From contig CAYZJA010000001.1 of the NCBI GenBank assembly GCA_964479005.1, forward strand, positions 80,642 to 144,641: a stretch of 64,000 nt of DNA, given 5' to 3'. Within the stretch, counting starts at the first letter, position 1, and each line of letters begins with the position of its first letter. Below the pieces are notes generated by a model. That model was not told the origin of the DNA, made no database searches, and was given only the letters and a program-made list of their open reading frames with translations. Source of the stretch: an uncultured Candidatus Saccharibacteria bacterium. GTDB taxonomy: Bacteria > Patescibacteriota > Minisyncoccia > UBA6257. Made by a program: the position numbers and the translations under genes. This document shows positions 1 to 58,094 of the stretch, in pieces.

Positions 1-1
1 G

Positions 2-844
2 GCTCCAACAGAGAGCCCAGAATTAAAAGAGCCTTCTTTTATAGTTTTATTTTCAGCTACTGAGCTTCAGCAAGGAAATACATTAATTATTATGGCAGAG
101 AATATTCCTGAGGGGGAAAAAATTACGGGAAAATTTAACGGTAAATCATTTGATTTTTTTCCAGTTAAACCAGAAGGAAAATGGAGAGCTCTTTTGGGAA
201 TTGATGCAAAAAAAGCTCCTGGAGAATATTCTTTATCAGTTTTTCTTTCTGATGAATCAGAAATCAAAGAAACAATAACAGTAAAAAAGAGCAACTTTCC
301 TGTAACCAAAATTGTAATAACGCCAGAACTGGAAGAAAAGGGTTTTACTGCATCAAATATAGCAGGAAATATTGCTACTAAAGACGGGGTTATTATTTAT
401 GGGGTTTTAGAAAAATATAGTTCTATGGCATATTTTAACCAGAGTTTTATTTATCCGTTTGAGGAAATAATAAACGTGGGCGCTTTTGGAAACATTAGAA
501 AAGACGGAAAGATTACAATTCAGCATTTGGGAGTGGATTTAGATGCTGTTGAGGGGACATCAGTTTATGCGATTAATAATGGTAGAGTAGTTTTTGTTGA
601 AGAATTAACAGTTTTTGGTAATACAATTATTATAGATCATGGCTTAGGAATTTATTCTTTATATTTACATCTTTCTGAATTTAAAGTTTTGGAAGGAGAA
701 ATACTGGAAAGGGGAGAATTAATTGGACTTTCTGGAAACACTGGTTGGTCAGTAGGGCCTCATTTACATCTTTCCATAAAAGTAAATGGAGCAAGCGTTG
801 ATCCTTTGGAGTTTATTAGAACGGTTGATGAATTTTTGAAATAG
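2..844 (+). CDS. M23/LytM-family metallopeptidase; reading frame is open back to position 2, so the 5' end is probably outside the window (first in-window ATG at 92)
   Basis: C-terminal IIDHGLGIYSLYLHLS...GNTGWSVGPHLHLSI matches the HxxxD / HxH zinc site of peptidase M23. Confidence 0.8.
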   Translation, partial: APTESPELKEPSFIVLFSATELQQGNTLIIMAENIPEGEKITGKFNGKSFDFFPVKPEGKWRALLGIDAKKAPGEYSLSVFLSDESEIKETITVKKSNFPVTKIVITPELEEKGFTASNIAGNIATKDGVIIYGVLEKYSSMAYFNQSFIYPFEEIINVGAFGNIRKDGKITIQHLGVDLDAVEGTSVYAINNGRVVFVEELTVFGNTIIIDHGLGIYSLYLHLSEFKVLEGEILERGELIGLSGNTGWSVGPHLHLSIKVNGASVDPLEFIRTVDEFLK

Positions 845-933
845 CGAAACAAAAGGTCGAAAATTAATCGAAAATGAAATCTGTTTGGAGGTTGGGCCTC
901 GCATTATTCTTTTTAAAATGATAATCTTAATAT

Positions 934-1545
934 ATGAGATTAGTTTTAAAAAATAAATACTTCTTACTAAGGCACGGAAAAACTATTCATCAAGCAGAGA
1001 AGGAGGATATTGTTTATTACCATCCTGATGATAATCCTGCTTGTGCTTTATTAGAGAAAGGAATAAAGGAAGCTCAGCTAGCTGGGGAAGCACTAAAAGA
1101 AAAAAACATCGATTTAATATTTTCATCAGATATTTTAAGAACAAAACAGACAGTTAAAATTGTTGCTGAATTAATTAACTATGATCTAGAGAAAGTAGTT
1201 TATGATGTAAGGTTAAGAGATGTTAATTGGGGAATATTTGGAGGAAAGAGTGAAGAAGAAGCTTGGTCATACTATAACAATGATATGATGAACAAGTTTG
1301 AATCAAGTGTTCCTCAAGGAGAGAGCTGGAATCAGTGCAGAGAAAGGATGGTTGAAGTTTTAAAGGAAATTGAAAATAATTTTGCAAATAAGAATATTTT
1401 AATAGTTTCTCATGGAGATCCTTTATGGCTTTTAGAAGGATATATTAAAGGAAAAAGTAATGAAGAATTGGTTTTTGGAAAGAATAGAAAAAAAGATATT
1501 AAAACCGGGGAAATAAGAGAAATTAATAATCAAACCAAAAAGTAA
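934..1545 (+). CDS. histidine phosphatase (phosphoglycerate-mutase-like) family protein
   Basis: N-terminal LLRHGKT catalytic RHG motif; SSDILRTKQT; VSHGDP near the C-terminus. Confidence 0.65.
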   Translation: MRLVLKNKYFLLRHGKTIHQAEKEDIVYYHPDDNPACALLEKGIKEAQLAGEALKEKNIDLIFSSDILRTKQTVKIVAELINYDLEKVVYDVRLRDVNWGIFGGKSEEEAWSYYNNDMMNKFESSVPQGESWNQCRERMVEVLKEIENNFANKNILIVSHGDPLWLLEGYIKGKSNEELVFGKNRKKDIKTGEIREINNQTKK

Positions 1546-1552
1546 GAATTAA

Positions 1553-1903
1553 TTGGGAAATAAAAATATGTCGAAAATGACTATAAAAGAAGCTCAAGAA
1601 ATTGTTGATAAATGGATTAACACAACCGGGGTGCGATATTTTTCTGAACTTACAAATTTAGCTCAATTGGTTGAGGAAGTAGGTGAGGTTGCTCGAGTTA
1701 TGTCCAGAACTTATGGTGATCAGAGTTTTAAGAAATCAGAAGAGGGTAAAAAATTAGCCGATGAATTGGCGGATGTACTTTTTGTACTTATATGTCTTGC
1801 CAACCAAACGGGTGTTGATTTGACAGAAGCACTTCAGGGGAATATTGAGAAAAAGACAAAAAGAGACAAAGATCGGCATCGAAATAATCCAAAATTAAAA
1901 TAA
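1553..1903 (+). CDS. MazG-like nucleoside triphosphate pyrophosphohydrolase domain protein
   Basis: EVGEVARVM...ELADVLFVLICLANQTGVDL resembles the EExxE / ExxD helices of the MazG fold. Confidence 0.55.
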   Translation: MGNKNMSKMTIKEAQEIVDKWINTTGVRYFSELTNLAQLVEEVGEVARVMSRTYGDQSFKKSEEGKKLADELADVLFVLICLANQTGVDLTEALQGNIEKKTKRDKDRHRNNPKLK

Positions 1904-1977
1904 AAAACGTCAAAAATTAATTGAAAATTAAAATGCCCAAGGATAAGCTTATCCTTGGGCGGTGATAGTGGGATTTA

Positions 1978-2214
1978 TTATTTCTTTTCATGATAAACTA
2001 CCATAAAGATTGCAAATATTGCTACGAGCAAATAAATAGTAAAATCCGAGCTCATTATACCAATATTTTTGACCGTTAATCTTTCTATTGAAGAAAACAT
2101 AATGATAATACAACAGACAAGAGATGTTACAATAGAAATTATAAGCAGAATTGTCAAAGACGCTAACACACGAGAGAAAATCTTCTCAATTTTAAAAGGA
2201 AAAAATTCTTTCAT
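1978..2214 (-). CDS. small hydrophobic membrane protein, unknown function
   Basis: 78 aa with two predicted TM helices; AAGGAGG RBS upstream on the minus strand; shares its upstream module with the gene at 2357-2560. Confidence 0.4.
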   Translation of the reverse strand: MKEFFPFKIEKIFSRVLASLTILLIISIVTSLVCCIIIMFSSIERLTVKNIGIMSSDFTIYLLVAIFAIFMVVYHEKK

Positions 2215-2356
2215 TGATCCCTTCCTCCTTCTTATTTATTAAATCTTTTATCAAAGATTTTAATATACTATTTGTACAAAATAATACCATAAACTATTGG
2301 TTAGAAAACTTAAAAGATTATGAAAGTAGGGACAAGGAGAGCTAGAGAACTGGCTA

Positions 2357-2560
2357 TTAGCCTCCTTGTCGCCCGTGAGTTATTAAAAGAATTTTTTGTT
2401 TTTCGATTTCTATTTCAATCGTATTTAGTCCACCGTGGGTACTATCTGAGTAACCCTTGCCAGATCCGCAAACTGGACACGCTCCATCTTTCCAAAGTTT
2501 ATGATGGGTTTTGTATAAGCAATGGCTGCATCTCCAGATCCTTTTAGGTACATTTTGCAT
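2357..2560 (-). CDS. small zinc-ribbon protein, unknown function
   Basis: CSHC...CPVC; two CxxC pairs about 15 aa apart. Preferred over the overlapping plus-strand ORF 2320-2547, which has no motif. Confidence 0.4.
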   Translation of the reverse strand: MQNVPKRIWRCSHCLYKTHHKLWKDGACPVCGSGKGYSDSTHGGLNTIEIEIEKQKILLITHGRQGG

Positions 2561-2781
2561 TTGCTTTCACTCCTTCTTTTTTCTCTTTTTATTAGATTTT
2601 AAGATGTCAATATGCTATTTGTATAAGATGATACCATTAATTATAATAAAGGTCAAGTTCGTAAAAGGTAAAAATTAATGGAATATAAAATAATAGTTAG
2701 ACTTTCTAATGTATTAGATTTTTGAAAAATCTGGTATAATTGAAAAGGTCGTTAACATTAATAAATAATTCTTAATAAATT

Positions 2782-3060
2782 ATGGCAGAAGTTATTAAAA
2801 AAAATGGAATGAAAGAACCATTTGATCCTGAAAAAATTAAAAAATCAATTGCTGGTGCTGCTCAACAGGCTGATGTCCCAGAAGAGAGAAAAGACGAAGT
2901 AGTATATGAAGTGGCAGGAACAGTAATCCCTATGTTTGAAGGTAAAGAGGAAATTGATACAAGTGATATTAAGAAAGCTATTCTTAGTGAGTTGGATAGG
3001 GTTGAACCGGCTGTAGCTAGTGCTTGGAGAAAATATGAGGAAGGTAAAAGGAAAGTTTAA
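2782..3060 (+). CDS. stand-alone ATP-cone domain protein
   Basis: VIKKNGMKEPFDPEKIKKSI... is the canonical start of ATP-cone domains (NrdR / RNR regulatory domain). Confidence 0.5.
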   Translation: MAEVIKKNGMKEPFDPEKIKKSIAGAAQQADVPEERKDEVVYEVAGTVIPMFEGKEEIDTSDIKKAILSELDRVEPAVASAWRKYEEGKRKV

Positions 3061-3257
3061 TAAAGAAGGATGAAAGGCGTCCCAATGGGGCGCTTTTCAA
3101 TTTAGGTAAAAAAGAAATTAAAGTAATCTTTATTATCTATTACTTTTTCTACTTTTTAATTCCTTTATTAGCTAAGATATTAATTATATTATATACTTAT
3201 ATATAATTTTAATAAACTAATCTTTATAAAAAGCTAAAAATTAAGGGAGAATTTATT

Positions 3258-3464
3258 ATGGAATGTCAAAAAGAAGAAAATTTAAAAAGTTGTCCTTGTA
3301 CTTATCCTGATTGTCCAAGAAAAGGCATTTGTTGTGAGTGTATAAAATATCATTTGGCGCGCAATGAATTGCCAGCTTGTTGTTTTTCAAAGGAAGCAGA
3401 AAAGACTTTTGATCGTTCCTTTGAAATGTTTATTAAAAATCAAAAAGGCAAATTGAAAGAATAG
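3258..3464 (+). CDS. Cys-rich small protein, putative metal-binding
   Basis: 10 Cys in 68 aa: CPCTYPDCPRKGICCECIKYH...ACC. Confidence 0.45.
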   Translation: MECQKEENLKSCPCTYPDCPRKGICCECIKYHLARNELPACCFSKEAEKTFDRSFEMFIKNQKGKLKE

Positions 3465-3533
3465 AGAAGATAATAAGCATTTTATGTTAAAATATATTAA
3501 AAGGTCGGAAATTAATTAAAGAAATTAAATACT

Positions 3534-3698
3534 ATGAAAAAAGAATTTCCTTATCAAATTCATATGGCCCTTGGACTCATTTGGCTTTTTGTTGGGGTAG
3601 TTTTTCATTCAGGAATTGAGTTAGCTATTTGGGTCGCTGGAGGATTAGTGATGGTAACAATTGGTTTTTTAAACAAAAAAGGCAAAGAAAATCATTAG
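3534..3698 (+). CDS. small membrane protein (54 aa), not in the supplied ORF track
   Basis: ATG at 3534 sits 33 nt downstream of an AAAAGGTCGG motif. Encodes MKKEFPYQIHMALGLIWLFVGVVFHSGIELAIWVAGGLVMVTIGF, two TM helices, stop TAG at 3696. Confidence 0.35.
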   Translation: MKKEFPYQIHMALGLIWLFVGVVFHSGIELAIWVAGGLVMVTIGFLNKKGKENH

Positions 3699-3721
3699 TA
3701 GGTAAAAATAGTAAAAATAAT

Positions 3722-8085: not shown

Positions 8086-8225
8086 ATTTATGAAAAAGGA
8101 GATTAAAATTAGAAGAAAAGTGCATACGCCGTTGCGCCGTCCGCCTCGTTTAAGTGGGAAAAGGCATAAATTTGGAATAAAGCCAATTAAGAAAAAAGCA
8201 AAAGGTCGGAAATAACAATTAAAAT

Positions 8226-9434
8226 ATGGATTTTGTAGATAAAAACAAGCCATTGGCTGATAGAATGAGACCAGACTCTCTGGGTGATTTTTTAGGTCAG
8301 GAAGAACTTGTTGGGGAAGGAAAACTATTAAGGCAGGCAATTGAATCTGATAAAGTCCCTTCAATGATTTTTTGGGGACCTCCAGGAAGTGGTAAAACCA
8401 CCTTGGCTTATATTATTGTCAAACAAACTAAATCTGAATTTAGACGGATGAGCGCTGTTTCCAGCGGAATAAAAGATTTAAGAGAAACTGTAAAACAGGC
8501 AGAAGAAAACAAAAAATTAGGAAAAAGGACAATTTTATTTATTGATGAAATTCATCGTTGGAATAAAGCTCAGCAGGACGCATTGCTTCCTCATATTGAA
8601 CAAGGATTGATAATACTTATTGGGGCTACAACAGAAAATCCCAGTTTTGAAGTTATAGGGGCATTACTTTCCCGTTGTAGGGTTTTTGTTTTAAAACAGC
8701 TCAATAAATCTCAGATTTCAGAGATTATTAAAAGAGCGCTGAAAGATAAGAAAAAAGGATTAGGCAAATTAGGCATAAAAATAGATAATGAAATAATTGA
8801 TACTATTTCAGAGATGAGCAATGGGGATGCTAGAATTGCTCTTAATGTTCTTGAATATGCGTCTTCTATTTCAAATGAAATCACATTAGATCTTGTAAAA
8901 GACGCTTTTCAGAAATCCAATTTGTTTTATGATAAAAATGGTGAAGAACATTATAATATAATTTCAGCATTACACAAATCAATGCGTGGATCTGATGCTA
9001 ATGCCGCTTTGTATTGGTTAGCAAGAATGTTGGAAGCAGGTGAGGACCCTTTGTATGTAGCTAGAAGAATTGTACGGTTTGCTTCAGAAGATATAGGTTT
9101 ATCTAATTCTCAGGCATTACAACAAGCTGTTACTGCTTATCAGGCTTGTCATTTTATAGGAATGCCAGAATGTAATGTTATATTAGCCCAGGCAGTTGTT
9201 TATATGGCTAAATGTAAAAAATCAAATGATTTATACGTTGCTTATAAAAAGGCCGCTGAAGATGTGAGGAAATATGGAAATTTGCCAGTGCCTTTGCATA
9301 TTCGTAATGCCCCGACAAAATTAATGGAGGATTTAAAATATGGTAAAGGATATAAATATAGCCCTGATTATGATTACAAAGAAAATCAAGAATATTTACC
9401 AAAAGAATTAAAAGATAAAAAGTATTTAAAATAA
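8226..9434 (+). CDS. rarA: replication-associated recombination protein A (AAA+ ATPase)
   Basis: MRPDSLGDFLGQEEL...MIFWGPPGSGKTTLA Walker A; DEIHRWNKAQQD; C-terminal MgsA domain. Confidence 0.9.
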   Translation: MDFVDKNKPLADRMRPDSLGDFLGQEELVGEGKLLRQAIESDKVPSMIFWGPPGSGKTTLAYIIVKQTKSEFRRMSAVSSGIKDLRETVKQAEENKKLGKRTILFIDEIHRWNKAQQDALLPHIEQGLIILIGATTENPSFEVIGALLSRCRVFVLKQLNKSQISEIIKRALKDKKKGLGKLGIKIDNEIIDTISEMSNGDARIALNVLEYASSISNEITLDLVKDAFQKSNLFYDKNGEEHYNIISALHKSMRGSDANAALYWLARMLEAGEDPLYVARRIVRFASEDIGLSNSQALQQAVTAYQACHFIGMPECNVILAQAVVYMAKCKKSNDLYVAYKKAAEDVRKYGNLPVPLHIRNAPTKLMEDLKYGKGYKYSPDYDYKENQEYLPKELKDKKYLK

Positions 9435-16788: not shown

Positions 16789-16837
16789 GGTAGTATAATA
16801 ATATATAGAAGGTCGATAATTTTAAAAAAATAAAAAT

Positions 16838-27404: not shown

Positions 27405-27528
27405 TTATGAGCCAAAGGCGAATAACAAGGTTCTTATTATGAGCAAAGCAAATAACAAGGTTCTTATTATGAGCCAAAGGCGAATAACAAGGTTCTTATT
27501 ATGAGCAAAGCAAATAACAAGGTTCTTA
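27405..27528. repeat. 2 x 62-bp tandem repeat filling the rpmC-rpsQ spacer; member of the AAGAACCTTG repeat family in inverted orientation
   Basis: ttatgagccaaaggcgaataacaaggttctta + ttatgagcaaagcaaataacaaggttctta, duplicated. Each half carries a micro-ORF (atgagccaaaggcgaataacaaggttcttattatga = [11 protein letters not shown]). Confidence 0.9.
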
Positions 27529-27529
27529 T

Positions 27530-40518: not shown

Positions 40519-40526
40519 TCTATTGA

Positions 40527-40943
40527 CGATTGAACCTATAAGCCGAATTCTGTATCCTGTTAAACAGGACGATAGTCATTTATCTAGCCCTGAAATTACT
40601 CTCAGGGTCAAGCGGCCACTTTCTGACAAATGTCAGAACACGAGCCTTGCACCCAGTAAGGATTTAGCCGTTTCATTCTTGAAATTGCTTTCAAGACTCA
40701 CCCTAATTAAAAAATAATTAGGGTGTTTTGAACTTTTCAGTTCAAAACGTCTCTGTTCGCACCTCTATTCCAGTTGTAAATCCGTCATTAGCGTTACCGC
40801 TAAGAGGCAAAAACTGGAGCGATAGCTGTTAGCTATTACCTTTTACCAACTTTGTTTTAGGCAAAATTGGTGGTGTTCGGACTTTCCTCCCCGCCTAAGT
40901 TTTGCGAACAAAATTTTGGCGGGGTAACTACCCAGTTCAATCG
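40527..40943 (-). ncRNA. rnpB: RNase P RNA (bacterial type A-like)
   Basis: Minus strand reads CGAUUGAAC (P1)...UUACCCCGCC-loop-GGCGGGG (P3)...AGGAAAGUCCGAACACC (P4 5' strand)...AGGGUGA...ACAGAAUUCGGCUUAUAGG (P4 3' strand)...GUUCAAUCG (P1). Confidence 0.85.
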
Positions 40944-46778: not shown

Positions 46779-46807
46779 TTGACAAATAGTTTTACATCGC
46801 ATATACT
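46779..46807 (+). promoter_or_regulatory. sigma70-like promoter TTGACA-N17-TATACT, with a second TGTATAAT -10 at 46757-46764, for the accessory operon
   Basis: cttgacaaatagttttacatcgcatatact. Confidence 0.55.
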
Positions 46808-46848
46808 GGAGTTAGGTCGTAATAATTAACTATTTCATCACCAAAGCT

Positions 46849-47629: not shown

Positions 47630-48406
47630 GTGCTTACAAAATTTATTCAAAAATTGCGAAAAAAGAATAATATGACGCAGGAATTTTTGGCGTCCGAGTT
47701 GAATATCTCTCGTCCTACTTATGTTCAAATAGAACAAGGCGAACGGGATTTAACTATCACCGAAGCGGAAAAACTAGCTTCTATTTTTGGAATTTCTTTT
47801 GAAGATTTTAGACATGGAAAAGATTCTTCAATTACCGCAAAAATTGAAAAGAATAAAATCAAACCAAAAATAGGAAAACAAGAGATAAGAATTAACGTCC
47901 CGCAAAAAAATCTTAAAAAATTTAAGGAAGTTTTACTTTATGTTTTGTCAAAAGTCGGCGGTAAATCAAATGTCGGCGAAGCGGTATTATATAAACTGCT
48001 TTATTTTATTGATTTTGATTTTTACGAAAAATTTGAGGAACAATTGATTGGCGCGACATATATTAAAAATCATTATGGGCCAACTCCTGTTGAGTTTAAA
48101 GCTATTATTGGCAATATGATTCAAAACGATGAAGTCGTAAAAGTTGAGGGAAAATATTTTAATTATCCACAAAGAAAATATCTGCCAGTTAGACGGCCAG
48201 ATCTTAATGTTTTATCTGGACGAGAGATAGAACATATTGATGATGTTTTGGCGCGTCTTGCTGATAAAAATGCTAAAGAAATGGAAAATTACTCCCATGA
48301 AGATATTCCGTGGAAAACGGCGGAAAATGGCAAACCACTTTCCTACGAAAGTGTTTTTTATCGTGACGAACGTTATTCTGTAAGAAATTATGAAGACGAA
48401 CTTTAA
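47630..48406 (+). CDS. XRE-family HTH fused to a Panacea (DUF4065) domain; putative antitoxin
   Basis: N-terminal MTQEFLASELNISRPTYVQIEQGERDLTITEAEKLASIFG (HTH_XRE). C-terminal AVLYKLLYFIDFDFYEKFEEQLIGATYIKNHYGPTPVEF matches the Panacea core. Confidence 0.55.
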   Translation: MLTKFIQKLRKKNNMTQEFLASELNISRPTYVQIEQGERDLTITEAEKLASIFGISFEDFRHGKDSSITAKIEKNKIKPKIGKQEIRINVPQKNLKKFKEVLLYVLSKVGGKSNVGEAVLYKLLYFIDFDFYEKFEEQLIGATYIKNHYGPTPVEFKAIIGNMIQNDEVVKVEGKYFNYPQRKYLPVRRPDLNVLSGREIEHIDDVLARLADKNAKEMENYSHEDIPWKTAENGKPLSYESVFYRDERYSVRNYEDEL

Positions 48407-53851: not shown

Positions 53852-53969
53852 CTGGTAATTTCAAGTTCTTGACTAATAGTTAAAGGTTGTTATACTTTAA
53901 ATGTAGAAGAAAATTAAATAAAAAAGGTCGATAAAACTTTAAAATAATTATAATTGGAATTTTAAAAAT

Positions 53970-54227: not shown

Positions 54228-54246
54228 AAGTTATCCACAATGGGAC

Positions 54247-58036: not shown

Positions 58037-58094
58037 AATATTAAAATTAATAAAAAAAATAAATAAAAAAATAAAAATTAATAAAATAAAAAAA

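What the first reader, a model, noticed from the sequence alone, without database searches (positions are those of the whole stretch)
851..870. Recurrent AAAAGGTCG(R)AAAT upstream motif 23-45 nt before start codons
The motif aaaaGGTCG(a/g)(a/t)aa(t/a) occurs in at least seven intergenic regions, always on the coding strand and at a fixed short distance upstream of an ATG:
- 851 (before 934)
- 2743 (before 2782)
- 3499 (before the 3534 micro-ORF)
- 8201 (before rarA 8226)
- 16808 (before 16838)
- 46813 (before the GIY-YIG gene 46849)
- 53921 (before 53970)
- a degenerate aaaaCGTCAaaaattaat at 1905

This motif is distinct from the canonical TTGACA-N17-TATAAT promoters also present in the window. 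It may be a binding site for a global regulator, or a -35-like element of an alternative sigma factor driving leaderless or very short-leader transcripts.
Basis: seen in the sequence. Interest (0 to 1): 0.5.

Follow-up and report, generated by a model that had tools for sequence, protein, structure and literature searches.

The report
Conserved leader before accessory gene cassettes
The short AAAAGGTCG motif is real, but it is the variable left edge of a roughly 30-base, almost invariant leader that sits directly in front of the start codon of many accessory and defence genes in an uncultivated, tiny-genome (CPR/Patescibacteria) bacterium, and it is also the point at which those genes are swapped, gained and lost between related genomes.

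Summary
The motif is present at the stated coordinates and is far above chance: 4 exact matches against 0.04 expected.

It is one end of a longer element: aaCCAAAA-GGTCA-AAAATTAATTGA(A/G)AAATAAAAtt-ATG. The most invariant part is AAAAATTAATT, not GGTCR.

In 296 kb of related low-GC CPR contigs I found 186 copies:
- All are co-oriented with the downstream gene.
- The start codon lies 28 nt (mode) after the first G.
- Only one copy lies inside a long open frame.

In the window:
- 855, 1540, 1908 and 3503 are true family members.
- 2747, 8204, 16811, 46815 and 53926 share only AAAGGTCG plus an AT-rich tract.

Where a sigma-70-type -10 box is recognisable, it lies 6-17 nt upstream of GGTCR. The block is therefore predicted to be transcribed as a leader, not a -35 element. 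Its spacing is conserved relative to the ATG, not relative to the promoter. As RNA it is unstructured.

The genes behind it are unrelated accessory or defence genes in co-directional arrays. Their order is scrambled between relatives, and the homology breakpoints fall inside the block.

I found no attC-like hairpin and no integrase.

Best reading: a portable Shine-Dalgarno-less leader (an expression module) whose repetition also makes it the cassette junction. TSS positions and function are inferred, not shown.

The parts
851..880 (+). Leader copy, GGTCG variant (AAAAGGTCGAAAATTAATCGAAAATGAAATC). It sits directly after the stop of the M23 peptidase ORF (ends 844). The His_Phos gene does not start until 934; a hairpin (888-900) and a -10-like GATAAT lie between them.
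Evidence: PWM score 29.6. The same leader + hairpin + ATG arrangement occurs before His_Phos homologues in L128, L181 and L212, while L174 and L215 keep the hairpin but lack the leader.
1536..1565 (+). Degenerate leader copy (CAAAAAGTAAGAATTAATTGGGAAATAAAAA). It overlaps the last codons and the stop (1543-1545) of the His_Phos ORF, and lies 28 nt before ATG 1568 of the MazG-like gene.
   Evidence: PWM score 21.1. The sequence is shown. The equivalent copy in L128 scores 20.2 with d = 28.
1904..1933 (+). Leader copy, CGTCA variant (AAAACGTCAAAAATTAATTGAAAATTAAAAT), immediately after the MazG stop codon. It is an orphan: only a 9-codon ORF follows, inside a strong hairpin at 1935-1960 where the co-directional array meets minus-strand genes.
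   Evidence: PWM score 33.8. The hairpin folds at -19.6 kcal/mol with z = -4.3 and is terminator-like.
3499..3533 (+). Leader copy, GGTCG variant (AAAAGGTCGGAAATTAATTAAAGAAATTAAATACT), running up to ATG 3534 of a 54-aa ORF. It is preceded by an extended -10 box, TGTTAAAAT, at 3485-3493.
   Evidence: PWM score 24.2. The 54-aa gene is called in the source metagenome (L109 12601-12765).
2743..2781 (+). AAAAGGTCG-type 5' UTR of the ATP-cone gene (ATG 2782). The -10 box TGGTATAAT at 2732-2740 ends 6 nt upstream.
   Evidence: PWM score below 0. Nevertheless AAAGGTCG(N)TAACATTAATAAATAATTCTTAATAAATT-ATG is conserved in 4 of 4 orthologous upstream regions (ext, L142, L152, L190). The -10 to GGTCG spacing varies between 6 and 16-17 nt.
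8200..8225 (+). AAAAGGTCGGAAATAACAATTAAAAT directly before the rarA ATG at 8226. It shares only the left arm and an AT-rich tract with the family.
   Evidence: Exact pattern match. PWM score -3.9. A 41-aa ORF called by the source (window 8090-8215) overlaps it.
16807..16837 (+). AGAAGGTCGATAATTTTAAAAAAATAAAAAT before ATG 16838 (a 121-aa protein with no Pfam match). A -10 box, TAGTATAAT, lies at 16791-16799.
   Evidence: PWM score -0.8. The spacing to the ATG is 27 nt, as in the main family.
46811..46848 (+). TTAGGTCGTAATAATTAAC... 5' UTR of the GIY-YIG gene (ATG 46849). The canonical promoter TTGACA (46779-46784)-N17-TATACT (46802-46807) ends 7 nt upstream.
   Evidence: PWM score -41.7. This is the weakest resemblance to the family.
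53922..53969 (+). AAAAGGTCGATAAAAC...ATAATTGGAATTTTAAAAAT before ATG 53970 (a 66-aa ORF). It lies downstream of tRNA-Val and of TTGACT (53869)-N16-TATACT (53891-53896).
   Evidence: Exact pattern match. Coordinates. PWM score -8.3. The 66-aa gene is called in the source (L111 4588-4788).
1..3700 (+). The window's share of a co-directional array of unrelated accessory genes. In order they are M23 peptidase, His phosphatase, MazG-like, ATP-cone, DUF6485 and a 54-aa ORF. The array continues at least 9 kb upstream of the window, through Mrr, MFS, MazG-like, radical SAM, ClpP-like, serpin, hydrolase and aminotransferase IV. All strong leader copies lie in this array.
   Evidence: Of the 13 PWM hits in the 80-kb extended region, all are on the + strand and all lie between -7312 and +3503. 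There are none in 3.5-71 kb.

Best explanation
The element is a transcribed, unstructured, A/U-rich 5' leader or intercistronic spacer of about 30 nt. Its consensus is AAAAGGUCAAAAAUUAAUUGARAAAUAAAAuu-AUG. It acts as a portable expression module, that is, a Shine-Dalgarno-less translation-initiation region, possibly also bound by a common factor. It serves accessory and defence genes in this CPR lineage.

Some copies have their own sigma-70-type -10 box just upstream, so the mRNA would begin at the first As of the block. Other copies have no recognisable promoter and would be read as spacers inside polycistronic transcripts.

Dozens of co-directional copies share an identical 11-20 nt core. 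Recombination between copies therefore deletes, inserts and reorders single genes, so the block is also the cassette junction.

Shown:
- sequence conservation;
- orientation;
- spacing to the ATG;
- position relative to promoter-like boxes;
- lack of secondary structure;
- homology breakpoints inside the block.

Inferred:
- that the block is transcribed from the predicted start sites;
- that it acts in translation;
- that the shuffling arises from homology rather than from a dedicated enzyme.
For: 1. Placement.
- There are 186 copies in 296 kb of non-redundant related contigs.
- 173 of 186 have a co-directional ORF start within 150 nt.
- The distance from the first G to the ATG has a mode of 28 nt and quartiles of 27-39.
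- Only 1 of 186 lies inside a long open frame.

2. Boundaries. Conservation starts abruptly at -4 and fades at +25, 2-3 nt before the ATG. There is nothing conserved upstream at -35-like distances.

3. Promoters.
- -10-like hexamers are enriched about 3-fold, starting at -16/-15.
- They include clear extended -10 boxes (TGGTAGAAT, TGTTAAAAT), some directly after terminator hairpins.
- This predicts a TSS at about -3 to 0.
- Window examples are at 2732-2740, 3485-3493 and 46779-46807.

4. Spacing logic. In four orthologous ATP-cone upstream regions the element keeps its distance to the ATG (35-39 nt). Its distance to the -10 changes from 6 to 16-17 nt.

5. Context.
- Many copies fill 30-60 nt gaps between co-directional ORFs.
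- 48 of 231 upstream ORFs terminate at stop codons inside the block.
- This fits an intercistronic role and not a promoter-bound operator.

6. Structure. The consensus RNA folds at only -1.6 kcal/mol, no better than shuffles. Candidate stem positions show no covariation.

7. Translation signals in this genome. Most genes in the window lack a Shine-Dalgarno sequence and have A-rich upstream regions. A few have perfect GGAGG.

8. Junction role.
- 141 of 148 instance pairs that share a downstream gene family have different upstream families.
- The switch in sequence identity lies within -4 to +25.
- 44 of 62 blastn HSPs start within -20 to +30 of a copy, against 6% expected.
- L128 carries a 1165-bp two-gene insertion between two direct copies relative to the window's genome. 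The crossover lies inside the shared AAAAGGTCAAAAATTAATTG.
Against: - Information content is about 30 bits, and the core AAAAATTAATT is almost invariant. That is far more than any known Shine-Dalgarno-independent initiation signal needs. It argues for recognition by a specific factor, or for copies related by recent descent.
- Housekeeping genes of the same genome, such as the ribosomal protein operons, are translated without the element. There are no PWM hits in 3.5-71 kb.
- In the His_Phos cassette the leader is separated from the ATG by a hairpin and a promoter-like box. In two relatives it is absent altogether, so that gene does not need it.
- All TSS positions are predictions from consensus matches. 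About 60% of copies have no recognisable -10 box.
- The related loci were fetched with the motif itself. Copy density per genome therefore cannot be inferred.
Confidence: 0.5

Rival explanations
1. The block is a dedicated site-specific recombination site of an integron-like gene-cassette system, the functional equivalent of attC. Its left part would belong to the 3' end of one cassette and its right part (TTGARAAATAAAA-ATG) to the 5' end of the next. A recombinase encoded elsewhere in the genome would cut inside the invariant core.
For: - The arrays are co-directional and hold unrelated accessory and defence ORFs. These include Mrr, GmrSD, AbiU2, NYN, Shedu, serpin, HD, NUDIX and methyltransferases.
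- Neighbours are scrambled between relatives, with breakpoints inside the block.
- There is a clean cassette indel between direct copies.
- The central 11 nt are invariant, as expected of a crossover region.
- Inserts of 7-52 nt recur at one position, between +13 and +14. Tandem 'empty' copies about 31 nt apart also occur.
- The block supplies the stop codon for 21% of upstream ORFs, in all three frames.
- Flanks loosely resemble integron core sites. An RYYYAAC-like sequence lies at -12 to -6 in about half the copies, and TTRRR lies at +13 to +17.
Against: - There is no attC-like imperfect palindrome. The best stems between the left flank and the right arm are no better than when flanks are swapped among copies, and there is no covariation. 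The consensus MFE is -1.6 kcal/mol.
- At 30 nt the block is about half the minimum attC length.
- No XerD-like tyrosine recombinase or serine recombinase was found in about 400 kb of array-bearing loci. None appears among the 25 most frequent Pfam families of 133 representative proteins. Sensitivity was limited and array ends were mostly not sampled.
- Gene order is identical in six samples of the same population, so the arrays are not highly dynamic.
- The tight spacing to the ATG is not expected of a pure recombination site. Nor is the conserved AAAGGTCG inside the ATP-cone cassette, which lies downstream of that cassette's own promoter.
Confidence: 0.17
2. The block is the binding site of a global regulator that co-ordinately controls the accessory and defence gene set. 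The regulator would be a DNA-binding repressor sitting at +1 to +30, or more plausibly an RNA-binding protein or small RNA acting on the leader.
For: - High information content and an invariant core point to recognition by a specific macromolecule.
- There is a weak dyad, TCAA-N7-TTGA.
- The element is restricted to accessory genes and absent from housekeeping operons.
- It is conserved in orthologous 5' UTRs.
Against: - As a DNA operator it is poorly placed. Many copies have no promoter nearby, and its distance to the -10 is variable while its distance to the ATG is conserved.
- The dyad is only 4+4 bp and shows no symmetric conservation.
- No antisense or trans-encoded complement was seen. 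All copies in the extended region are on the coding strand.
- No candidate regulator was identified.
Confidence: 0.15
3. The block is a mini-upstream-ORF coupling device. AAAGG would act as a weak Shine-Dalgarno sequence 6-8 nt before an AUU start. A 2-4 codon ORF (AUU AAU UGA/UAA) would load ribosomes, which then reinitiate at the Shine-Dalgarno-less AUG 11-12 nt downstream.
For: - GG-N6-ATT AAT T(G/A)A is present in the consensus. Position +15 is G or A in 96% of copies, both of which keep a stop codon.
- The same GG-N6-8-ATT...stop arrangement occurs in the divergent window sites. Examples: 855 (ATT AAT CGA AAA TGA), 2747 (ATT AAT AAA TAA), 3503 (ATT AAT TAA) and 16811 (ATT TTA AAA AAA TAA), read.
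- One copy, at ext -7312, has ATG AAT TGA.
Against: - About 35% of copies have no GG: CGTCA, CATCA, TATCA and AGTCA variants.
- The sense codon AAT is invariant, which coding alone does not explain.
- AUU is a poor start codon.
- Positions +15 to +18 are all purine, so retention of the stop codon may be incidental.
Confidence: 0.08
4. The block is itself a promoter. It would be recognised by an alternative sigma factor or by another polymerase with a long specific promoter, and would drive leaderless or very short-leader transcripts.
For: - It occurs gene by gene, is oriented, and sits at a fixed distance from the ATG.
- GTCAAA resembles ECF-type -10 elements, and GGTCGATAA loosely resembles the sigma-28 -10 GCCGATAA. 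Both comparisons are from my own knowledge.
- ARAAAT at +16 to +21 lies 6 nt before the ATG, which is the geometry expected for leaderless transcription.
Against: - No conserved partner block exists 15-19 nt away on either side.
- The -11-equivalent position is G in about 40% of copies.
- Canonical -10 and -35 boxes lie upstream of the block in the clearest cases.
- Inserts of 7-52 nt at +13/+14 would break any two-block promoter.
Confidence: 0.05

Closest known systems
Integron cassette arrays and attC sites, including sedentary chromosomal integrons with near-identical repeats such as Vibrio VCRs, and CALINs (attC clusters lacking an integrase)
   Same: - Long co-directional arrays of small, unrelated accessory or defence ORFs, many without a recognisable promoter.
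- A conserved repeat at every gene boundary.
- Cassette content and order differ between relatives, with breakpoints in the repeat.
- The repeat can supply the stop codon of the upstream ORF.
   Different: - The repeat is 30 nt, not 57-141 nt.
- It has no imperfect-palindrome hairpin and no R''/R' pairing (both tested).
- No integrase was found.
- It sits at a fixed 28 nt from the start codon and is predicted to be the 5' UTR.
Putative mobile promoters, that is, propagated 5' regulatory sequences found upstream of non-homologous genes
   Same: Near-identical upstream sequence in front of many unrelated genes within one genome and across relatives. This implies spread by descent rather than convergence.
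   Different: Here the conserved part lies downstream of the predicted transcription start and runs to the ATG, so it is a leader and not a promoter. It is organised in arrays and coincides with gene-order breakpoints.
Shine-Dalgarno-independent translation initiation regions, such as the A-rich unstructured upstream regions of Bacteroidota, S1-dependent A/U-rich leaders, and enhancers such as the T7 gene 10 epsilon sequence
   Same: - A/U-rich and unstructured.
- Immediately upstream of the AUG.
- Found in a genome where most genes lack a Shine-Dalgarno sequence.
   Different: Those signals are degenerate compositional biases of a few bits. This element is a specific sequence of about 30 bits, restricted to accessory genes.
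ops / RfaH-type and other NusG-paralogue leader elements of horizontally acquired operons
   Same: A specific, oriented element in the transcribed leader of accessory genes that lack good Shine-Dalgarno sequences.
   Different: ops is 12 nt, GC-rich and occurs once per operon. Here the element precedes individual genes. No NusG paralogue was examined.
Alternative sigma-factor promoters, such as sigma-28 TAAA-N15-GCCGATAA and ECF AAC-N16-CGTC
   Same: Short resemblance of GGTCGATAA and (C)GTCAAA to their -10 elements.
   Different: There is no -35 partner at the right spacing. The motif lies downstream of sigma-70-type -10 boxes, and its spacing is tied to the ATG.
Gene-by-gene AT-rich viral promoters, such as the Mimivirus AAAATTGA octamer and the poxvirus early promoter core
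   Same: A highly conserved AT-rich motif, here containing AAATTAATTGA, in front of a large fraction of genes and at a constrained distance.
   Different: Those motifs lie upstream of the transcription start in eukaryotic viruses that carry their own transcription factors. Here the host is a bacterium with canonical sigma-70 promoters. IMG/VR held only single, apparently coding, chance matches.

Membership tests
Integron attC site | Inverse core R'' (RYYYAAC) and core R' (GTTRRRY) that pair with each other in a folded single strand | tested here: not met
   An RYYYAAC-like sequence occurs at -12 to -6 in about half the copies, and TTRRR occurs at +13 to +17. However, the base before TT is A rather than G. 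Stems between the two regions are no longer than in controls with swapped flanks, and no covariation is seen.
Integron attC site | An imperfect palindrome of 57-141 nt with L''/L' boxes and extrahelical bases | tested here: not met
   The conserved block is 30 nt. The consensus MFE is -1.6 kcal/mol with z = +0.6. The only internal dyad, TCAA-N7-TTGA, shows no covariation; for example, C3 is paired with A15 in 35 of 143 copies.
Integron | An intI tyrosine recombinase adjacent to the array | tested here: inconclusive
A Pfam scan of 133 representative proteins shows no integrase among its 25 most frequent families, and families matched by a single member are not listed. Most loci are internal array fragments, and the upstream end of the window's own array could not be reached.
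Integron / cassette array | A co-directional array of unrelated ORFs separated by the repeat, with cassette content varying between relatives | tested here: met
Sigma-70-family promoter (alternative sigma) | Two conserved blocks separated by about 15-19 nt, lying upstream of the transcription start | tested here: not met
   There is a single contiguous block from -4 to +25, and information content is about 0 at -40 to -17. Recognisable -10 and -35 boxes lie upstream of the block. TSS positions are predicted, not measured.
Shine-Dalgarno sequence | Complementarity to the 16S 3' tail, located 5-10 nt upstream of the start codon | tested here: not met
   AAAGG could pair with CCUUU, but it lies 27-29 nt before the main ATG, and GG is absent from about 35% of copies. 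The 16S rRNA of this organism is not in the window or in any fetched locus.
Transcription-factor operator | Dyad or direct-repeat symmetry, and a position fixed relative to the promoter | tested here: not met
   There is only a 4+4 bp dyad. The distance to the -10 varies from 6 to 17 nt in orthologues. Many copies have no promoter-like box.
MITE / REP-type intergenic repeat | Terminal inverted repeats or a stable hairpin, target-site duplication, and occurrence in both orientations | tested here: not met
   The element is unstructured. It is strictly co-oriented with the downstream gene: 13 of 13 on the + strand in the extended region, and 173 of 186 with a co-directional ORF.
Structured cis-regulatory RNA (riboswitch or leader in Rfam) | A match to a curated covariance model, or a conserved secondary structure | tested here: not met
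   An Rfam gathering-threshold scan of the window found only RNase P RNA and three tRNAs. No structure or covariation was found.

The most novel reading that the evidence does not exclude
The 30-nt block is the attachment and crossover site of a previously undescribed gene-cassette capture system in CPR/Patescibacteria. It would be functionally analogous to integrons but would have no attC hairpin and an unknown or non-IntI recombinase. Each cassette would carry a standardised leader, so that any captured ORF is expressed without a Shine-Dalgarno sequence.
Probability: 0.17. Interest if true: 0.9.

Novelty: new variant of a known kind. Interest (0 to 1): 0.62.

Why it matters
CPR/Patescibacteria are uncultivated, have tiny genomes, and offer almost no experimental data on gene expression.

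A specific signal of about 30 bits in front of a large share of their accessory and defence genes would be a concrete handle on two questions. The first is how these organisms express horizontally acquired genes without Shine-Dalgarno sequences. The second is how their variable gene islands are assembled.

If the block is only a leader, it is a ready-made, testable expression signal for a lineage where none is known. It would also serve as a marker for finding accessory islands in MAGs.

If it is also a recombination site, it would be a second, structurally different solution to the problem that integrons solve.

It has a practical use as well. It fixes start codons for gene callers, explains the artefactual C-terminal tails '...NQKVKN', and flags orphan leaders.

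Tried and rejected
1. RNA or DNA hairpin UCAA-N7-UUGA. The TCGA...TCGA version at 855 looked compensatory, but across 214 copies the paired positions vary independently. The consensus is unstructured.

2. attC-like pairing of the left flank with the right arm. It is no better than in flank-swapped controls.

3. Alternative-sigma geometries (sigma-28, sigma-H, sigma-54, ECF). The spacings do not fit, and there is no partner block (consensus sequences recalled from memory).

4. A leaderless -10 box at +16 to +21. Position -11 would be G in about 40% of copies.

5. A general translation signal for this genome. 6-mer enrichment upstream of 56 non-array genes shows nothing comparable: ATTAAT occurs 11 times against 6.7 expected. 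There is no PWM hit of 20 or more outside 855-3503; the best elsewhere is 14.0 at 58069, within the range reached by shuffles.

6. Viral origin. Scans of IMG/VR gave only single matches per contig. Only three viral loci reached a PWM score of 22 or more, each at a single site, and several isolated genome hits look coding, since GGTCAAAAATTAATTGA reads as GQKLIE.

7. Complementarity to 16S rRNA. This could not be tested, because no rRNA gene is in the window or in the fetched loci.

8. Recombinase hunt. Nothing was found. Walking upstream of the array failed because the exact flanking protein is not on record.

9. Recent mobility within the species. Six samples show the same gene order.

10. 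Literature. Three full-text searches on Patescibacteria with promoter motif, integron/gene cassette, and leaderless/Shine-Dalgarno found nothing describing this element.
Full report
**Source and setting**

The window is 31% GC. It carries a bacterial class-A RNase P RNA and three tRNAs, and a complete S10-spc-alpha ribosomal protein region. It is identical to part of a 551,616-bp contig of JGI metagenome 3300028837, at roughly positions 318,258-382,257.

Related contigs are labelled 'Candidatus Saccharibacteria' or 'Candidatus Parcubacteria' in public records. The organism is therefore a CPR/Patescibacteria bacterium; I did not resolve the class.

Most genes have A/T-rich upstream regions without a Shine-Dalgarno sequence. 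A few have perfect GGAGG.

**Checking the observation**

The looser sites are also present.
- The pentamer GGTCG alone is not enriched.
- All sites are in 5' regions on the coding strand.
- Distances to the called ATG range from 22 to 44 nt. For 855 the distance is 79 nt.

**The motif is the edge of a longer element**

I extended the window by 9 kb upstream and 7 kb downstream from the same population. The upstream flank holds many copies of AAAAGGTCAAAAATTAATTGAAAATAAAAA-ATG. In one case this is the entire 30-nt spacer between two genes.

Exact 20-mer scans of GTDB genomes and JGI metagenomes gave two kinds of result. Low-GC CPR-like contigs gave multi-copy hits. Unrelated organisms gave isolated single hits, several of which look like coding matches.

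From 28 non-redundant loci (296 kb) an iterated PWM collected 186 copies. The consensus is aaCCAAAA-GGTCA-AAAATTAATTGA(A/G)AAATAAAAtt-ATG.
- Positions +4 to +14 (AAAAATTAATT) are essentially invariant.
- The GGTCR core is the more variable part. Variants include GGTCA, GTCGA, CGTCA, AGTCA, CATCA, GATCA and TATCA.
- Conservation begins abruptly at -4 and fades at +25.

**Placement**

- 173 of 186 copies have a co-directional ATG-ORF start within 150 nt.
- The distance from the first G to the ATG has a mode of 28 nt, and two-thirds of copies fall within 23-31 nt.
- One copy lies inside a long open frame.
- In 55 array-bearing loci, 196 of 509 ORFs are directly preceded by a strong copy, at 60 nt or less.
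- These loci were retrieved with the motif itself, so the densities are biased upwards.

In the 80-kb extended region all 13 copies are on the + strand and lie between -7312 and +3503. The ribosomal, EF-Tu, RNase P and other housekeeping stretches have none.

PWM scores in the window:

| Site | PWM score |
|---|---|
| 855 | 29.6 |
| 1540 | 21.1 |
| 1908 | 33.8 |
| 3503 | 24.2 |
| 2747, 8204, 16811, 46815, 53926 | all below 0 |
| Maximum in shuffles of the window | 15.6 |

The last five sites still share AAAAGGTCG. Excluding the two family members, that 9-mer occurs three times on the + strand against my own composition-based estimate of about 0.36 for both strands together. They also share an AT-rich tract leading to the ATG. 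A more distant Parcubacteria MAG has the same kind of leader, AAAAGGTCGCGGGAATAATTAAAATTAAATAAAATT-ATG.

I therefore regard them as diverged relatives. The left arm and the A-rich end are the more widely shared parts. The AAAAATTAATTGA core marks a subfamily that has multiplied.

**Promoter or leader?**

-10-like hexamers are enriched about three-fold, starting 16-15 nt before the first G. The list includes unambiguous extended -10 boxes (TGGTAGAAT, TGTTAAAAT, TGGTAAAAT). Some follow a GC-rich hairpin plus T-run directly.

Window examples:
- TGGTATAAT at 2732-2740, 6 nt before GGTCG.
- TGTTAAAAT at 3485-3493, 9 nt before.
- TTGACA-N17-TATACT at 46779-46807, 7 nt before.

Predicted start sites thus coincide with the first As of the conserved block.

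Further points against a promoter reading:
- No conserved block exists at -35-like distance.
- The only -10-like register inside the block would have G at -11 in about 40% of copies.
- In the four orthologous ATP-cone upstream regions the element is conserved in all. Its distance to the -10 is 6 nt in one and 16-17 nt in three, whereas its distance to the ATG is 35-39 nt.
- About 60% of copies have no recognisable -10 box and sit in 30-60 nt gaps between co-directional ORFs.
- 48 of 231 upstream ORFs end at stop codons inside the block: TAA at +10 to +12, TGA/TAA at +14 to +16, and TAA at +21 to +23.

Together these place the block in the transcript, as a 5' UTR or an intercistronic spacer. 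They tie it to the start codon and not to the promoter.

**Structure**

- The consensus RNA folds at -1.6 kcal/mol, no better than shuffles.
- The TCAA-N7-TTGA dyad shows no covariation.
- Rfam has no match.

**Cassette behaviour**

The genes behind the block are unrelated accessory and defence functions. They include Mrr, GmrSD, AbiU2, NYN, Shedu, OLD/AbiE-like ATPases, serpin, HD and MazG-type hydrolases, NUDIX, methyltransferases, aminotransferase IV, peptidases and small unknowns.

Clustering 509 ORFs shows the same families recurring in many loci with different neighbours.
- Of 148 non-identical instance pairs that share the downstream family, 141 have a different upstream family.
- Pairs sharing the upstream gene are similar up to about -5.
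- Pairs sharing the downstream gene are similar from about +15 to +26 onward.

blastn of the island against the other loci gives single-gene blocks at 70-98% identity. For 44 of 62 HSPs the left end falls within -20 to +30 of a copy, against 6% expected, with a mode at -5/-4.

The cleanest case is L128, which is 95-98% identical in the flanks. It carries a 1165-bp two-gene segment between two direct copies, where the window's genome has one copy. The crossover lies inside the shared AAAAGGTCAAAAATTAATTG.

Tandem 'empty' copies about 31 nt apart also occur. So do inserts of 7-52 nt at one position, between +13 and +14. Within the source population, gene order is identical in six samples, so exchange is not rapid.

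**Is it an integron?**

The array logic is similar, but the defining features fail.
- There is no R''/R' pairing beyond controls and no palindrome.
- The length is half the attC minimum.
- No recombinase was found in about 400 kb. Sensitivity was limited, and the array ends were mostly unsampled.
- I could not reach the upstream end of the window's own array.

**Conclusion**

The best-supported reading is a portable, unstructured, Shine-Dalgarno-less leader for accessory genes, at about 0.5 confidence. Its many identical copies make it the junction at which single genes are exchanged. Whether exchange happens by homology or by a dedicated enzyme is open.

The very high information content, and the fact that housekeeping genes do without the block, argue that a specific factor recognises it. 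That could be a regulator, a ribosome-associated factor or a recombinase.

The alternatives, ranked in the report, are:
- a dedicated recombination site (0.17);
- a global regulator site (0.15);
- a Shine-Dalgarno-AUU mini-ORF reinitiation device (0.08);
- an alternative-sigma or leaderless promoter (0.05).

All transcription start sites are consensus predictions, ORFs were called mechanically, and no expression data were available.

Noticed in passing
window 27421-27529: There are four copies of AATAACAAGGTTCTTAT at 27421, 27451, 27483 and 27513, with a period of about 30-32 nt. They lie in the gap between the L29 and S17 genes of the ribosomal protein operon, just before ATG 27530. The related 9-mer AAATAACAA recurs upstream of other genes (8210, 27780, 29242, 29249, 39190). 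AATAAC and TAACAA were the most enriched 6-mers upstream of non-array genes.
   Followed up: no
L109 6686-6766 and 3446-3518 (window coordinates about -2381 and -5621); L123, L152, L177, L207: A GC-richer module, CCTTCGACAGGCTCAGGACAAG, interrupts the leader. Variants range from 7 to 52 nt. It always sits at the same point, between AAAAATTAAT and TTGAAAAAT. It may be a small insertion element, or the 5' end of a distinct cassette class.
   Followed up: partly
window 54231-54239 and 48163-48171; tails of several cassettes in L122, L142, L173, L174, L208: A perfect DnaA-box sequence, TTATCCACA, occurs next to promoter-like boxes. At 54231 it lies 7 nt before a TTGACA. In relatives it forms a recurrent module, TTGTCAAG-N-TTATCCACAAGCTAAAAT, about 22 nt upstream of the leader.
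   Followed up: no
window 1935-1960: A strong perfect hairpin, GCCCAAGGATAAGCTTATCCTTGGGC (-19.6 kcal/mol, z = -4.3), lies at the convergent junction between the co-directional array and two small minus-strand ORFs. It is probably a bidirectional terminator.
   Followed up: partly
related loci, e.g. L123 345-947, L192 3363-3923, L214 3600-3806: Unrelated proteins share the C-terminal tail ...NQKVKN (or QKVKN). Their ORFs run into the leader (AAC CAA AAG GTC AAA AAT TAA) and use its stop codon. This is an annotation artefact, or a real tail, that is diagnostic of the element.
   Followed up: partly
window 888-933 and homologues in L174, L181, L212, L215: The His_Phos cassette carries its own conserved 5' module: a hairpin followed by ATTCTTTTTAAAATGATAATCTTAATAT-ATG. 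The hairpin sequence differs between relatives (cgaggttaaatctcg, cgagattaaccctcg, ggaggttgggcctc) but the pairing is kept. The -10-like GATAAT ends 8 nt before the ATG, suggesting a near-leaderless transcript.
   Followed up: no
window 34965, 54572, 55272, 11771, 9473(-): Only a handful of genes have strong GGAGG Shine-Dalgarno sequences, whereas most have none. The anti-Shine-Dalgarno sequence is presumably intact but rarely used in this genome.
   Followed up: no
window 8090-8215: The 41-aa ORF called in the source metagenome overlaps the AAAAGGTCGGAAAT site before rarA. It may be a spurious call.
   Followed up: no
window 40523-40943 (-): There is a bacterial class-A RNase P RNA (110 bits, just above the family threshold of 100). 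It lies on the minus strand, in a window where almost all genes are on the plus strand.
   Followed up: no
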